A stretch of DNA of 63,581 nt, filler included, from Octopus bimaculoides (lineage: Eukaryota), in the NCBI RefSeq assembly GCF_001194135.2. It is 6 parts of 6 records of this genome, joined end to end, with 100 filler letters (N's around TTAATTAATTAA, not from the genome) between each part and the next. Parts side by side here need not be neighbours in the genome. Positions count along the whole stretch, not along the records: positions 1 to 13,839 come from NC_068996.1; positions 13,940 to 32,857 come from NC_068988.1; 4 more parts are not named here. One strand, 5' to 3'. The notes under the pieces are model-generated. The model worked only from the letters and a program-made list of their open reading frames with translations. It had not been told where the DNA came from and searched no databases. Both the position numbers and the translations under genes were made by a program. Positions within the stretch are counted from its first letter, which is position 1; each line of letters begins with the position of its first letter. Positions 7,346 through 22,345 of the stretch are shown piece by piece.

Positions 7346-7929
7346 ATTGAAAAAGTTCGTTATAGGTATAAAGATATTGAATCAATTATAAAAACGGAGA
7401 AAAGATGCTAAAATATCAAAATTGGATTTAATACAAACGAACGTTACAAAAGACAATATAATATATATGTAAGAATAAATTATAATGATAGTAATTATAA
7501 TTAAAGTTATGTGTTGTTGTTTTCATCAGTGTGAAGAATTTAAGGAAGAACATCAAAAAAGTTATTAATAAAAGTCAATAAGGAAAAGCAAATGGGGTAA
7601 GAGGGAAAATTCAAGCGAATATTTACAAATAAGTTGTAAAAGGGAAAAATAATAAGAGAGACGAATAAGAAAGACATATTAAAGTGTATGCAAGTCTATT
7701 TGTGCAAAAAAATCCATAACTTTTTTGATGTTCTTCCTTAAATTCTTCACACTGATGAGAATGACAATACATAATTTTAATTATAATTATTATTATAATT
7801 TTTTCTTACATATTTATATTGTCTTTTGAAACGTTCGTATGTATTAAATCCAATTTTGATTTTTAACACATTTTCTCCATTTTTATACTTGTTTATGATA
7901 TCTTTACACCTATAACAAACTTTTTCAAT
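7346..7929. repeat. Long imperfect inverted repeat A (arms 7346-7565 and 7716-7929, ~150 bp spacer)
   Basis: The arms are reverse complements, e.g. gtgaagaatttaaggaagaacatcaaaaaagttat / ataacttttttgatgttcttccttaaattcttcac. Confidence 0.9.
7749..7842 (+). ncRNA. Putative type I hammerhead ribozyme with long stem II (right arm of IR A)
   Basis: aca-CTGATGA-gaatgacaata...tattgtctttt-GAAA-cgttcg-TA|tgt: intact core and a GUA cleavage triplet, but stem I is only about 3 bp. Confidence 0.55.
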
Positions 7930-10794
7930 CATATATATATATATGTGTGTGTGTGTAGTATAAACATATATATTTATGTATATATATACACACATATATA
8001 TCCATATATATGTGTGTATATGTGTGTGTGTATTTGTAGACATACAAGCACACGCACATGTATAAAAGGATGATTTTTAGTTGTATTTTCTAGTGTTATT
8101 TTAAAGACCATAACTCACCACCGCCTTACTTAATTTTAAAAACTATGAAAGGGAAATCATAATAGAAGCATTTGTAGATATTTCTGGAAATCTAATTCCC
8201 ACTGAAACAATTAGTAGTAGCAGTAGCAAAACAATTCTGAAACAGAGAAAAACAATATCATAGTAATGCTGAGTGAATTCTCGAAGAAGATTCTTTAAAT
8301 ATAGTCTATAAATCCAGGTCAGCTGAACAAGCCTAACAAACAAGCAATTCCTGGAACCTTGAGAACGATTCTCATACCAAAATGAAGAGCAGGATATCTT
8401 GAGCTTACATCATGTTACACACTGAGGGCTATGATTTTGTGATCCAAGTTCACGAGAGAGCTACGAACCCCCTTAAGTTATGTTGATTTTAAATATTAAC
8501 TTTGAAAAGCTGGAGCTTTCAGTTGAAAAGAAAGAGACCATGAAATACATACCCAAGGAAATTCAATTTGTAAGCAGAAAAGTAAGAAAATCTGTAAGAA
8601 TATCGTTAGTAGTATGTTGTATGATTACAAGCAAATTTAACGAAAGCATGTAACGAAAGAAATCTAGTAACATGAAACCAAATAGGTTACATACCGACTT
8701 ACATAATCATAATGTTCTCAGTGAATCGAAATTTACCATTTTTTTTTAAAGAAAGGAATCAAAAAGCTACAGGTGTTTCTTAGCGATTCTCAAGGAAAAT
8801 GTGTTGAAAAGAGAGAGACATATACTGTAGTGATACAGAGAGAAAGTGAGAGGAAAAAATAAGTTATGTGTAGGTGTGAACGTATGTCTGTGTGCTTAAA
8901 GAGGTACATGAATGGATTCAACCGCTATATTTGTATGTTTATGAGTTTGTGTATTTATGTGTGTATGTGTGTATGTATGTGTGTATGTATGTGTGTATGT
9001 ATGTGTGTATGTGTTTGTATGTGTGCGTGCGTTTATGTGTGTATGTATGTATGTATGTATGTAGTATGTGGGAATGCAGATAGATAGACAGATAACAGAT
9101 GCTATGATTCTCTTTTGCTTTACATACAACTTTATAAGATCCAAAGTGCAGAAGAACATGGGGAGGGAAACGCATATTTAACAGCTCTGGTGGCAGACAA
9201 TGGTTACAACAGAATCCCAGCTTCAATCGTCTACGTCTCCTTGCCAGTGGGTCTTACTAATAACAGCAAGGTAACTTAGTATCACTGCTTGTTGGAGAAA
9301 CGAACATGAAATATGTTTTCCAAACTCAACTAAACCGCGTAGAAGCACACTCAGGCTCCATAACTAAAATGGTTGCTAATGATACTGAATCTTCACCCTG
9401 GAATAGATGATAACGACAATATATTTTCACCAATATCCTGAAACATTATTTATTGGGAATAATAATCGCTTATCTATGAAAGAAGCCGAAAGTTGACTAA
9501 ACAGAATATGCATGTAAATATGTTTGTGTATATATGGATATTTTTATGTATTCATATGATAATTACATAGGTAGACGCGGATGTTGCCTACATATCTACC
9601 TACATATCTATCTATCTATCTATCTATCTATCTATCTATCTATCTATCTATCTATCTATCTATCTATCTATCTGTCTGTCTGTCTGTCTGTCTGTCTGTC
9701 TGTCTGTCTGTCTCACTGTCTGTCTGTCTGTCTTTCTGTCTGTCTACTTATCTCTCTGTCTCTCTCTCTCTCTGTCTCTCTCTCTCTCTATCTATTTATC
9801 TATCAGTCTGTCTATCTGTCTTCTGCCCGTCTACATATACATATAAATACATATATTATTTGTATATATTTATGCTAAGCGTTCAGTGCATGAATATGCG
9901 TACGCGCATGCTATGTAGGCAATATATATATTTGTATACGGTATTGTGGTATGTAAAAGCGTATATATACATATGAACAATTGTATTATATATATATATA
10001 TATATATATAGATGCAGATATACATAGGCATATATATGTATATATATGTATATATATATATAAATGTAAATATACATATGCATATATATATATATATATA
10101 TATATATATANNNNNNNNNNNNNNNNNNNNNNNNNNNNNNNNNNNNNNNNNNNNNNNNNNNNNNNNNNNNNNNNNNNNNNNNNNNNNNNNNNNNNNNNNN
10201 NNNNNNNNNNNNNNNNNNNNNNNNNNNNNNNNNNNNNNNNNNNNNNNNNNNNNNNNNNNNNNNNNNNNNNNNNNNNNNNNNNNNNNNNNNNNNNNNNNNN
10301 NNNNNNNNNNNNNNNNNNNNNNNNNNNNNNNNNNNNNNNNNNNNNNNNNNNNNNNNNNNNNNNNNNNNNNNNNNNNNNNNNNNNNNNNNNNNNNNNNNNN
10401 NNNNNNNNNNNNNNNNNNNNNNNNNNNNNNNNNNNNNNNNNNNNNNNNNNNNNNNNNNNNNNNNNNNNNNNNNNNNNNNNNNNNNNNNNNNNNNTATATA
10501 TATATATATACATATATATACACAAACACACACATATGTGATATATAGGAATATATTTTGTCATGTATATATGCATTGGTATGCTATTCATGAATGAGAA
10601 TATAAGCTATATTTTCTTCATATATATGTATATATATTTATATTTCTACACAACATATACATATAAACACATACATTCATACACACATATACACATATAC
10701 ATACATATATATGTGTATATATATTCATAAATTTATATATACATGCATACACACTCACACACACGCATATAAGCACATACATATCTGTACAATT

Positions 10795-10853
10795 CCCGCC
10801 CTTTTCCACTACCATTGCCAGTATTTCTGACAATGGTAGTGGAAAAGGGCGGG
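10795..10853. repeat. Near-perfect 27-bp hairpin with 5-nt loop
   Basis: cccgcccttttccactaccattgccag-tattt-ctgacaatggtagtggaaaagggcggg; one mismatch. Confidence 0.9.
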
Positions 10854-21034: not shown

Positions 21035-21365
21035 GTGCATGGCTCAGTGGTTAGAGCATCAGGCTCTCAATCATGAGGTAGTGAGTTTGATGCTTGGACC
21101 AGGCTCTGAGCTATGTTCTTGAGCAAGACACTTTATTTCACGTTGCTCCAGTTCACTCAGCTGTAGAAATGAGTTGCGACATCACTGGTGCCAAGCTGTA
21201 TCGGCCTTTGCCTTTCCCTTGGATAACATCAGTGGCATGGAGATGATAGGCTGGTATACATGGGCAACAGCTGGTCTCCTATAAACAACGTTGCTTGGAC
21301 TTGTGCCTCGGAGGGTAACCTTCTAGGTGCAATCCCATGGTCATTCATGTCCAAAGGGGGTCTTT
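21035..21365 (+). mobile_element. tRNA-derived SINE, family C
   Basis: Head ggctcagtggttagagc...gtgagtttgatgc, core ttgagcaagacactt; fragments recur at ~24585-24700 (+) and ~37250-37425 (-). Confidence 0.65.
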
Positions 21366-22031
21366 ACTCTTTGATAATAACAATAATTCTTTCAAATTCT
21401 GGCACAAGGGCAGAAATTTTTGCGGGAGAGTGTTAGTTGATTACATTGATCTCAGTGCTCCACTGGTACTTTTTATACCAGAACATAATGAGTCAAAGAA
21501 ACTCTGCTAAGCATTATTTTGTCTGATGCTTTGTCAATTCTGCTAACTTGTTGCCTTAATAGAATTATAATGATAATGATGATGGTAATTTCCTATTGTG
21601 CTAATTTTCATGTGGTAGTGTAATCTTAAAATTAATTAGCTAATTGGACAGTGCTGTTTTCAATTAATGAACAATTAATTTATTAATAAGCTAAAGGTGA
21701 GTGCATGTACATATACATATTCAAGCATGCACAAGTGTATATTTGCATATTTTGAGAAGGCACTGGCATAGTTGAATGATTAAGGAACTTTGGAAACATA
21801 AAGTCCCAACTTAGAACATAGACACCCCTTGTGTGTCTATGTTCTATAATAGCCTTAGATTGAACTAAACAGTATGAGTAAAATTAAATAGAAAGTGAAT
21901 AGAAGCCCATTGGTGGGATTGTATATGAAATCACAAAATCCAGGTGATTTTACCTTTGTTCAAGTGCCTGTGGAATATTCAACCCCCCACTCCCCTTCCC
22001 TGATCTACTTTCTGTATCCTCATATATATAT

Positions 22032-22345
22032 ACCGGAGTAAGCACATAAATGTGAAACAAGGTGGAAAAAAGAGTACTCAAATACCAGAGGTAGAGTAAT
22101 ATGCTTTATTTAAAAGCAGCAGAAATATAACAAAAGCTGTTACTCAGAGTTTCACGTTCCCGTTCGTTGCACAGTTTTATTAAAAAAGAAAACACACCAT
22201 CAAAAGCATTTTTAAAACTCATCTCTGTAGCAAAAATACAATTTGTTTTGAATACATTTTTTTTTTAACAAAACTGTCCGACGAACGGGAACGTGAAACT
22301 CTGAGTAACAACTTTTGTTATATTTCTGCTGGTTTTAAATAAAGT
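22032..22345. repeat. Inverted repeat F (arms ~22100-22172 and 22263-22345) with hammerhead-like arms, flanked by (TA)n
   Basis: cagaaatataacaaaagctgttactcagagtttcacgttcccgttcg / cgaacgggaacgtgaaactctgagtaacaacttttgttatatttctg. Confidence 0.9.
22267..22320 (+). ncRNA. Putative minimal hammerhead ribozyme, U4C variant
   Basis: aacaaaactgt-CCGACGA-acg ggaa cgt-GAAA-ctctgag-TA|acaacttttgtt; compact stem II with a tetraloop and a near-palindromic stem III. Confidence 0.55.

What the first reader, a model, noticed from the sequence alone, without database searches (positions are those of the whole stretch)
7346..22345. Cluster of divergent inverted-repeat elements whose arms carry hammerhead ribozyme motifs with palindromic stem III
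Seen: six long inverted repeats (A 7346, B 13142, C 14419, D 18003, E 19856, F 22032) and one solo unit (12774). A and C are related; the others look unrelated in sequence. All share a type I hammerhead layout (only the 3' half in D), stem I-CUGANGA-stem II-GAAA-short stem III-GUH, with palindromic or near-palindromic stem III (ACGTTCGT, ACTAGT, ACGATCGT consensus, ACCAATTGGT, ACACGTGT, ACTCTGAGT, ACTATTAGT). In all six the motifs read outward from the centre. Known: Penelope-like elements carry minimal hammerheads with palindromic stem III thought to work as dimers, and PLE insertions can contain inverted terminal segments. Inference: these are non-coding, ribozyme-bearing, double-3'-ended retroelements made by joining two oppositely primed copies and mobilised in trans by PLE RT. 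I do not know this architecture to have been catalogued as a class in cephalopods.
Basis: partly seen in the sequence, partly recalled or inferred. Interest (0 to 1): 0.85.

Follow-up and report, generated by a model that had tools for sequence, protein, structure and literature searches.

The report
Back-to-back Penelope retroelement end insertions
The six hairpin-shaped repeats with outward-facing, mostly decayed hammerhead-ribozyme motifs are real, but they are likely one-off insertion products of Penelope-like jumping genes (two short end-copies pasted back to back), a known pattern, rather than a new mobile element that would move as a unit.

Summary
Observation largely confirmed: six inverted repeats (84-93% arm identity) with GAAA-palindrome-GUH reading outward in all 12 arms; four full hammerheads with perfect cores lie in the cluster (0.02 expected), but only 2 of 12 arms are intact. 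Two solos were missed (18390, 23999). The 'new class' reading is not supported. Inverted 5'-short copies, one-sided tails, (TA)n targets and opposite-strand hammerheads are published Penelope-like (PLE) features, and an octopus Hydra-clade PLE with such a hammerhead is catalogued. Junctions are not inherited: E's relatives join at many different points, F's centre copies DNA 1.5 kb away, and in young Hydra-clade families from metagenome contigs 29 of 30 junctions differ. Those families also show a sharp rule: two fixed 3' ends, one tailed arm per pair (24 of 26), 5' ends stopping within 9 nt of the ribozyme at a TATA/initiator-like site, and a tail hairpin also found in D, F and the solo. This suggests two reverse-transcriptase starts running off the RNA 5' end (inferred). 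No ORF link was shown for the window's own units. The scan noted similar fold-back PLE scars in other genomes.

The parts
7278..7565 (-). A left arm (long copy): hammerhead core at 7529, mutated GAAA at 7447, cleavage base 7436, plus ~68-nt one-sided extension 7278-7345 homologous to C's (may run to 7216)
7566..7715 (-). A spacer: T-rich non-coding upstream part of the left copy, weakly homologous to C's spacer (5 of 500 shuffles reach the score)
7716..7929 (+). A right arm (short copy): intact core 7752, 69-nt helix II region, GAAA 7828, GUA 7839
12685..12990 (-). Solo S: intact hammerhead (core 12822, GUA 12778), tail hairpin 12708-12736, ends at (TA)n
13142..13380 (-). B left arm, decayed hammerhead (core 13342, one mismatch; GAAA mutated)
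13391..13639 (+). B right arm, decayed hammerhead (core 13429, one mismatch; GUC 13459); 10-nt centre between the arms
14335..14612 (-). C left arm (short copy starting inside the core) with ~79-nt one-sided extension 14335-14413
14613..15012 (+). C right copy: T-rich upstream spacer, core 14805, 77-nt helix II region, GUA 14900
14328..14334 (+). Candidate 7-bp target-site duplication of C (second copy 15013-15019)
18001..18069 (-). D left arm (short copy, 3' half of hammerhead only)
18070..18337 (+). D right copy: spacer with out-of-register CUGAUGA (18147), GAAA 18208, GUA 18221, one-sided tail with hairpin 18269-18302
18355..18587 (+).
19842..20068 (-). E left arm: intact core 20053, 68-nt helix II region, GUA 19967; family match begins near 19842
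20070..20282 (+). E right arm, core decayed; 1-nt centre
22033..22193 (-). F left arm with 66-nt one-sided tail (22033-22098) holding the Hydra-type hairpin 22068-22100
22194..22260 (+). F centre: 97% copy of DNA at 23741-23807
22261..22349 (+). F right arm (tail-less), core 22278 with one mismatch, GUA 22307
23741..23807 (+). Likely donor of F's centre
23963..24003 (-). Further solo minimal hammerhead (perfect core 23999, 4-bp stem I, 6-bp stem II), outside the given interval

Best explanation
The repeats are likely one-off insertion products of several Penelope-like (PLE) retroelement families: two short copies of the element's ribozyme-bearing end region, likely primed on opposite strands of one AT-rich target cut and joined head to head, so that both 3' ends and both hammerhead motifs face outward. 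D, F and solo S look like Hydra-clade ends; the clade of A, B, C, E and G is not settled. Steps. Shown here: the architecture, the decay, variable junctions, one-sided tails, and in young relatives two fixed 3' ends, target duplications and 5' ends walled 8-9 nt upstream of stem I. Published for a lizard PLE in vitro: the protein cuts and extends both target strands and starts reverse transcription at two internal sites whose interval is the tail; a dimer is predicted. Inferred (about 55%): one cDNA starts at each site (hence one tailed arm per pair), both run to the 5' end of an RNA that begins at a TATA/initiator promoter just upstream of the ribozyme, and host end-joining, sometimes with filler copied from nearby DNA, seals the centre; longer arms (A, C, D, S) come from priming in the downstream end-repeat followed by ordinary truncation. 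The hairpins then decay in place and are not re-copied as units.
For: Literature layout: inverted 5'-truncated copy plus one-sided tail (PMC8557442); head-to-head is the common arrangement and the inverted pLTR is 37 bp shorter beside a TATA/Inr (PMC3846280); dual min-HHRs 100-700 bp apart on opposite strands (PMC4209133); Hydra-1_Obim of Octopus with (TA)n target and palindromic stem III, and Penelope-13_HM with a hammerhead on each strand; two-strand cutting and two RT starts (PMC11167929). Window: F's centre copies 23741-23807; A and C differ in which arm is long and where the short arm starts; C has a candidate 7-bp duplication; tail motif at 3 places, each 44-51 nt behind a cleavage triplet, versus 0.29 in shuffles. 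E relatives in three DNA runs: 8 of the 15 listed joints (of 108) go from left arm to right arm, at 8 different points with 1-2 contigs each, 2 more are probable; 52-67 contigs per run leave E at 20060. F-type relatives: 18 of 18 double hits divergent; 27 of 54 informative loci inverted; 30 independent sites, 29 junction types, 24 long+short, 2 short+short, 0 long+long, 4 unresolved; 47 of 66 starts within 9 nt of stem I, 3 at 10-14, 1 at 15-29, 15 at 30 or more; TATA-like word at -35 to -39 in 31 of 34 matches; PLE endonuclease C-terminal ORFs end about 100 nt upstream in L001 and L023.
Against: No PLE ORF was linked to any of the window's own units (no Pfam PLE hit in 12 window ORFs; no genome held). 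The pattern was built from F and published Hydra hammerheads, so the ribozyme likeness of its hits is circular; outside the pattern F matches one relative family at z 2.6 (7 of 500 shuffles) and the other not (z 0.6), and D and S match neither by alignment. The tail motif was defined from the three window hits. Two contigs span E's centre at about 83% identity, and only 15 of 108 joints and 24 of 4161 pieces were shown. The transcription start is inferred from motifs, not mapped; A's and C's short arms do not start at an evident TATA spacing; C's and D's short arms start inside the ribozyme. Templated filler was found in only 1 of 49 relatives by exact 14-mer search.
Confidence: 0.85

Rival explanations
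1. One reading: the whole palindrome is a non-coding element that is transcribed and re-inserted as a unit by PLE reverse transcriptase.
For: B and E are near-perfect fold-backs (10-nt and 1-nt centres); two other contigs span E's centre; a palindrome would offer RT start sites on either strand; one junction type occurred twice among 30 relatives.
Against: 29 of 30 junction types distinct; at least 8 different junctions among E relatives; F's centre is local DNA; shared arm starts are expected from a fixed RNA 5' end without unit copying; a transcript of the palindrome would pair the ribozyme with its own antisense copy.
Confidence: 0.05
2. Some families (A/C, E, B, G) come from ORF-less short masters (retrozyme- or SINE-like PLE derivatives) rather than from coding PLEs; each insertion is still a one-off inverted or solo product.
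For: No ORF in 150-190 nt of upstream spacer of A and C; unusual 68-77-nt helix II regions; ribozyme halves of E are far deeper in DNA runs than sequence 40-100 nt downstream; non-LTR retrozymes are argued to be PLE end derivatives (bioRxiv 10.64898/2026.07.22.740005).
Against: PLE 3' UTRs of 100-300 nt are normal (Hydra consensus sequences), so the spacers are too short to reach an ORF; no tandem arrays, the hallmark of retrozymes, among the units or among 120 relatives.
Confidence: 0.07
3. Head-to-head junctions arise by self-priming (fold-back) on an antisense template or cDNA, as proposed for Adineta PLEs, not by priming on both target strands. This is a rival to the mechanism only, not to the PLE identity.
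For: Proposed in PMC3846280; spacerless centres of B and E fit a fold-back; 2 short+short pairs among the relatives.
Against: A fold-back copy does not by itself explain why exactly one arm is tailed in 24 of 26 resolved pairs, with either the longer or the shorter 5' arm carrying the tail (A versus C), nor fillers of 1-67 nt at the centre.
Confidence: 0.2
4. MITEs or foldback DNA transposons with chance hammerhead-like words.
For: Long inverted arms in (TA)n; Rfam found no hammerhead; most arms are imperfect.
Against: 4 full motifs versus 0.02 expected; unequal outer ends are incompatible with terminal inverted repeats; solos exist; relatives lie behind PLE ORFs.
Confidence: 0.02

Closest known systems
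Hydra-clade PLEs (Craig et al. 2021, PMC8557442): Hydra-1_Obim, Hydra-2_Amil, Hydra-2_Ajap, Penelope-1_HM, Penelope-13_HM
   Same: (TA)n targets; sense hammerhead near the 3' end with 4-bp palindromic stem III; F equals Hydra-2_aJap at 19 of 20 nt from GAAA through stem I, S has the stem III of Penelope-1_HM, D resembles Hydra-1_Obim (by eye); Penelope-13_HM has an inverted copy with hammerheads on both strands.
   Different: No unit is the Hydra-1_Obim family itself (by eye); tails here are about 65-70 nt, not 30-40; no coding part is left.
Canonical EN+ PLE insertion unit with inverted pLTR and optional tail (PMC3846280; PMC8557442 Fig. 2 legend; PMC2377424 Fig. 1 legend)
   Same: Head-to-head inverted short copy, tail on one end, 7-16-bp target duplications, palindromic junctions.
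   Different: Both halves are short here, so the unit is a bare hairpin; a fixed 5' wall and a one-tail-per-pair rule were not stated in the passages read.
Minimal hammerheads of metazoan PLEs (Cervera and De la Pena 2014, PMC4209133)
   Same: CUGANGA, extra base before helix II, palindromic 15.2-16.2 region, U-rich upstream; opposite-strand pairs 100-700 bp apart noted in Schistosoma.
   Different: A, C and E carry 68-77 nt between core and GAAA, longer than the examples seen; cleavage untested.
Non-LTR retrozymes (PMC7229834; bioRxiv 10.64898/2026.07.22.740005)
   Same: Non-coding, type I hammerhead, PLE-end related.
   Different: Retrozymes are direct tandem arrays giving circular RNA; these are inverted pairs or solos.

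Membership tests
PLE minimal type I hammerhead | CUGANGA and GAAA cores in register with stems I and II | tested here: met
   Met for A-right, E-left, S, G; decayed in the other arms; not met for D
PLE minimal type I hammerhead | Palindromic helix III region before NUH | tested here: met
   All 12 arms and both solos, one mismatch allowed in A and C
PLE minimal type I hammerhead | Self-cleavage at NUH | not testable with these tools
   421 RNA reads of other copies show no start or end pile-up; fragmented library
EN+ PLE insertion unit | Head-to-head inverted 5'-short copy | tested here: met
   6 of 6 repeats; 18 of 18 double hits in relatives
EN+ PLE insertion unit | Tail on one end only | tested here: met
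   A, C, D, F 65-80 nt; B and E only 10-14 nt; 24 of 26 resolved relatives
EN+ PLE insertion unit | Target duplication or (TA)n target | tested here: met
   (TA)n beside A, S, B, D, G, F; candidate 7-bp duplication at C; none clear at E
EN+ PLE insertion unit | Derivation from an RT + GIY-YIG coding element | tested here: inconclusive
   Shown only for F-type relatives (L001, L023); not for the window's own families
Hydra clade | Clade-specific protein motifs (RWK, DKT, CxCX5C) | not testable with these tools
   No coding remnant in the units; homologues of the L001 ORF show these motifs by eye
Hydra clade | Hammerhead and 3'-end layout like catalogued members | tested here: inconclusive
   Good for F (end positions +34-38 and +105 versus +30 and +100; tail stem with GC-to-AU change), suggestive for D and S, not shown for A, B, C, E, G
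Non-LTR retrozyme | Direct tandem repeats each with a hammerhead | tested here: not met
   None in the window units; 0 tandem among 120 relative loci
   29 of 30 junction types distinct; many junctions among E relatives; unequal outer ends

The most novel reading that the evidence does not exclude
Bare ribozyme hairpins are the default one-step product of a PLE reverse-transcriptase dimer: each subunit starts at one of two sites that bracket a conserved tail hairpin, each primes on one strand of the target, and both run off the capped 5' end of a transcript that begins about 8 nt upstream of the hammerhead. The long-standing 'inverted, 5'-truncated copy' of PLEs would then be a strong-stop-like cDNA, and in this animal ORF-less masters with 70-nt helix II ribozymes may feed the same route.
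Probability: 0.45. Interest if true: 0.6.

Novelty: new member of a known kind. Interest (0 to 1): 0.36.

Why it matters
As a catalogue item it is modest: uncatalogued PLE end families in a cephalopod-like genome, some with unusually long helix II regions that Rfam and standard descriptors miss. The useful part is mechanistic: how PLEs form inverted ends is named as open in PMC8557442. The regularities seen in young relatives (two 3' ends, one tail per pair, a 5' wall at a promoter-like site, a conserved tail hairpin) give a precise model that can be tested with the existing in vitro PLE system and with 5'-end mapping. It also warns that such hairpins can be mis-annotated as MITEs or microRNA precursors (F scored against a plant miRNA model).

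Tried and rejected
Whole-genome census: no genome is held for this window. Rfam: no hammerhead family at E<=1. Pfam on 12 window ORFs: only a LINE-type RT piece (15210-15950) and a PHD-like piece; six-frame reading of the units showed no recognisable PLE coding. E-type 29-nt pattern: 0 hits in metagenome contigs; F-type pattern: 0 in viral contigs. Run search for A: no RNA holder listed. Idea that E belongs to the A/C family: not significant. Folding z-scores of the tails were weak (-1.8 to +0.2). Pfam did not name the L001/L023 ORFs or 6 homologues; their PLE identity rests on comparison by eye with published Hydra proteins. ADAR-driven arm divergence: transitions 4-13 and transversions 2-12 per repeat give no usable signal; no RNA read of 99% or more identity lay on E (0 of 421). 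Alignment A1 held one wrong-strand row and was not used. Earlier notes: none for this genome or for F by sequence. Searches for a described palindromic non-autonomous PLE class or a run-off/twin-priming model listed none; Arkhipova 2006, Evgen'ev and Arkhipova 2005, Pyatkov 2004 and Repbase were not seen, and one supplementary file of PMC4209133 and the preprint's supplements could not be searched.
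Full report
Observation. In all 12 arms the 3' half of a type I hammerhead (GAAA, palindromic or near-palindromic stem III, GUH) reads outward, GAAA being damaged in three. 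The 5' core is perfect in five arms (in D-right without stem I pairing), one base off in three, three off in two, cut off or absent in two. Only A-right and E-left keep every core base and a stem I of 3 bp or more. The motifs exceed chance: a strict descriptor gives 3 hits against 0.02 in 100 dinucleotide shuffles; a relaxed one, adjusted after I had seen the motifs, gives 4, all in the cluster, against 0.02. Rfam reports no hammerhead. Two more motifs were missed: solo G (18390, +) and one at 23999 (-). A and C are one broad family (z 13), D weakly resembles C (z 6), E does not significantly resemble A or C.

Anatomy. The repeats are not symmetric. A, C, D and F continue 65-80 nt on one side only; the extensions of A and C are homologous (0 of 500 shuffles). 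The spacers of A and C are weakly homologous T-rich upstream sequence of the element, attached to the left arm in A and the right arm in C, so the junction differs between the two. F's 67-nt centre is a 97% copy of 23741-23807; whether that donor is unique genome-wide is not known. Most units abut (TA)n; C has a candidate 7-bp target duplication. A short motif (CTC-hairpin-GAGYRC) occurs at three places in the window, 44-51 nt behind the cleavage triplets of D, F and S (0.29 expected); it was defined from these three.

What is published. PLE insertions often carry an inverted 5'-truncated copy and a tail at one end (PMC8557442, passages). Head-to-head is the usual inverted arrangement, and one rotifer inverted pLTR is 37 bp shorter than full pLTRs that hold a TATA box and initiator (PMC3846280, passages). 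Dual minimal hammerheads 100-700 bp apart on opposite strands were seen in Schistosoma (PMC4209133, parts 1-2 of 4). The supplement of PMC8557442 (parts 1, 2, 52, 53 of 59 and searched rows) lists Hydra-1_Obim from Octopus with (TA)n targets and a palindromic stem III, and Penelope-13_HM with an inverted copy and a hammerhead on each strand; by eye F matches Hydra-2_aJap at 19 of 20 nt from GAAA through stem I and S has the stem III of Penelope-1_HM. A lizard PLE protein cuts and extends both target strands, starts at two internal RNA sites whose interval is the tail, uses uncleaved RNA, and is predicted to be a dimer (PMC11167929, parts 1-2 of 4 and passages). In D. virilis the promoter lies in the pLTR with the intron 46 bp behind the start (PMC2377424, passages). 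Retrozymes are tandem (PMC7229834 passages; bioRxiv 10.64898/2026.07.22.740005 parts 1-3 of 5). PMC8969392 was seen as passages.

Are the palindromes copied as units? No genome was held, so I laid three DNA contig sets and one RNA run on E at 80% likeness. Depth peaks on the two ribozyme halves (46,552 and 54,362 in X2 against 26 on the flank and 1,605 about 50 nt downstream; the tool warns this is no copy number), so E belongs to a large diverse family whose ribozyme is its best-kept part; none of the 40 listed differences (125 not shown) falls in the left-arm core. Of 15 listed joints (93 not shown), 8 run from left arm to right arm at 8 different points, 2 more are probable head-to-head joints, 3 are arm switches and 2 are deletions; each rests on 1-2 contigs, several recurring in two runs. 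52-67 contigs per run leave E at 20060. Two contigs span E's centre at about 83%. A contig of organism C covers E's left arm with its flank at about 10% difference, so E is old. Of 421 RNA reads none was 99% alike; no start or end pile-up appeared.

Young relatives. An F-type pattern (built from F and published Hydra hammerheads) found 120 loci in metagenome contigs; 81 and 24 fall into two families, the second matching Hydra-2_Amil by eye, and 15 others were left out of the counts below. All 18 loci with two hits are divergent, none convergent or tandem. After removing 8 duplicates, 27 of the 54 loci with 150 nt or more upstream have an inverted partner. 33 inverted loci reduce to 30 sites with 29 junction types; 24 pair a tailed with a tail-less arm (6 cut by the contig end), 2 have two short arms, none two long, 4 are unresolved. 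3' ends fall at about +30 and +100, F's at +34-38 and +105; most complete sites show 6-16-bp direct words at both ends. Of 66 loci, 47 start within 9 nt of stem I, 4 at 10-29, 15 at 30 or more, and all 30 inverted ones in that count start within 9 nt. Position -8 is the A of an initiator-like word and a TATA-like word lies at -35 to -39 in 31 of 34 matches; these labels are from my own knowledge of core promoters. All 24 tailed copies and none of 67 tail-less ones carry the loose tail motif; its 4-bp stem has a GC-to-AU change in D and F, the other three pairs being fixed by the pattern. L001 and L023 hold the C-terminal part of a PLE ORF about 100 nt upstream; longer homologues of about 700 aa carry RT and Hydra-type motifs by eye. 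Against: outside the pattern F aligns to one family at z 2.6 and to the other at z 0.6, D and S to neither.

Mechanism. The simplest account is a single PLE insertion reaction: staggered cut in AT-rich DNA, two cDNAs primed on opposite strands, one from each start site, both ending at or near the RNA 5' end just upstream of the uncleaved ribozyme, then joined with or without filler. That yields outward-facing ribozymes, one tail, near-perfect fold-backs (B, E, F) when both run off, and spacers (A, C, D) when one was primed in the downstream end-repeat. PLE origin: 0.85. The run-off and one-site-per-strand steps are inferred (about 0.55); fold-back self-priming is the published rival. The two ribozymes of a repeat are on opposite strands and cannot dimerise in one transcript.

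Verdict. The catch is sound but the kind is known: new members of the PLE end-insertion pattern, not a new class. I found no statement of the run-off and one-tail rule in my searches, but key older papers were not seen, and an earlier AI note in this scan (e1-9867701) had already remarked on arms stopping just before the ribozyme in another genome. Interest 0.36.

Noticed in passing
window 52508-52639 (+): Open stretch ending in a stop that resembles the G2BR helix of AMFR/AUP1 (E 0.18-0.56); probably the last exon of a host gene, AUP1-like from its terminal position (recalled).
   Followed up: partly
window 10792-10856 and 18847-18885: Two short inverted repeats (65 and 39 nt) without hammerhead motifs.
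   Followed up: no
window 17650-17860 (-): T-rich stretch between (TA)n runs that looks like the upstream part of these units but has no ribozyme.
   Followed up: no
window 18164-18194: A TATA-like word lies about 25-30 nt before the point where D's short arm begins, inside the would-be helix II; D's CUGAUGA is itself half of a 14-nt palindrome.
   Followed up: no
window 18339-18390: Solo G has an initiator-like word about 12 nt before stem I and the (TA)n run about 22 nt before that, the spacing seen in the young relatives.
   Followed up: no
window 60478-60519: A CUGAUGA-containing 42-nt piece 81% like F's outer end beside (TA)n; possibly another decayed PLE end.
   Followed up: no
window 15210-16465, 32909-33304, 55895-56611: Decayed LINE-type pieces (RT, PHD-like zinc finger), unrelated to the hairpins.
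   Followed up: partly
L012 and L099: A solo relative whose 5' side repeats 14 or more nt of its own 3' flank, either a target duplication or templated filler.
   Followed up: partly
L020, L106: The two short+short pairs have inverted flanks running on beyond the element: possible assembly hairpins or a different repair route.
   Followed up: no
window 19977-20033: Contigs of E relatives with shorter helix II regions (table 5c): helix II length varies within the family.
   Followed up: no
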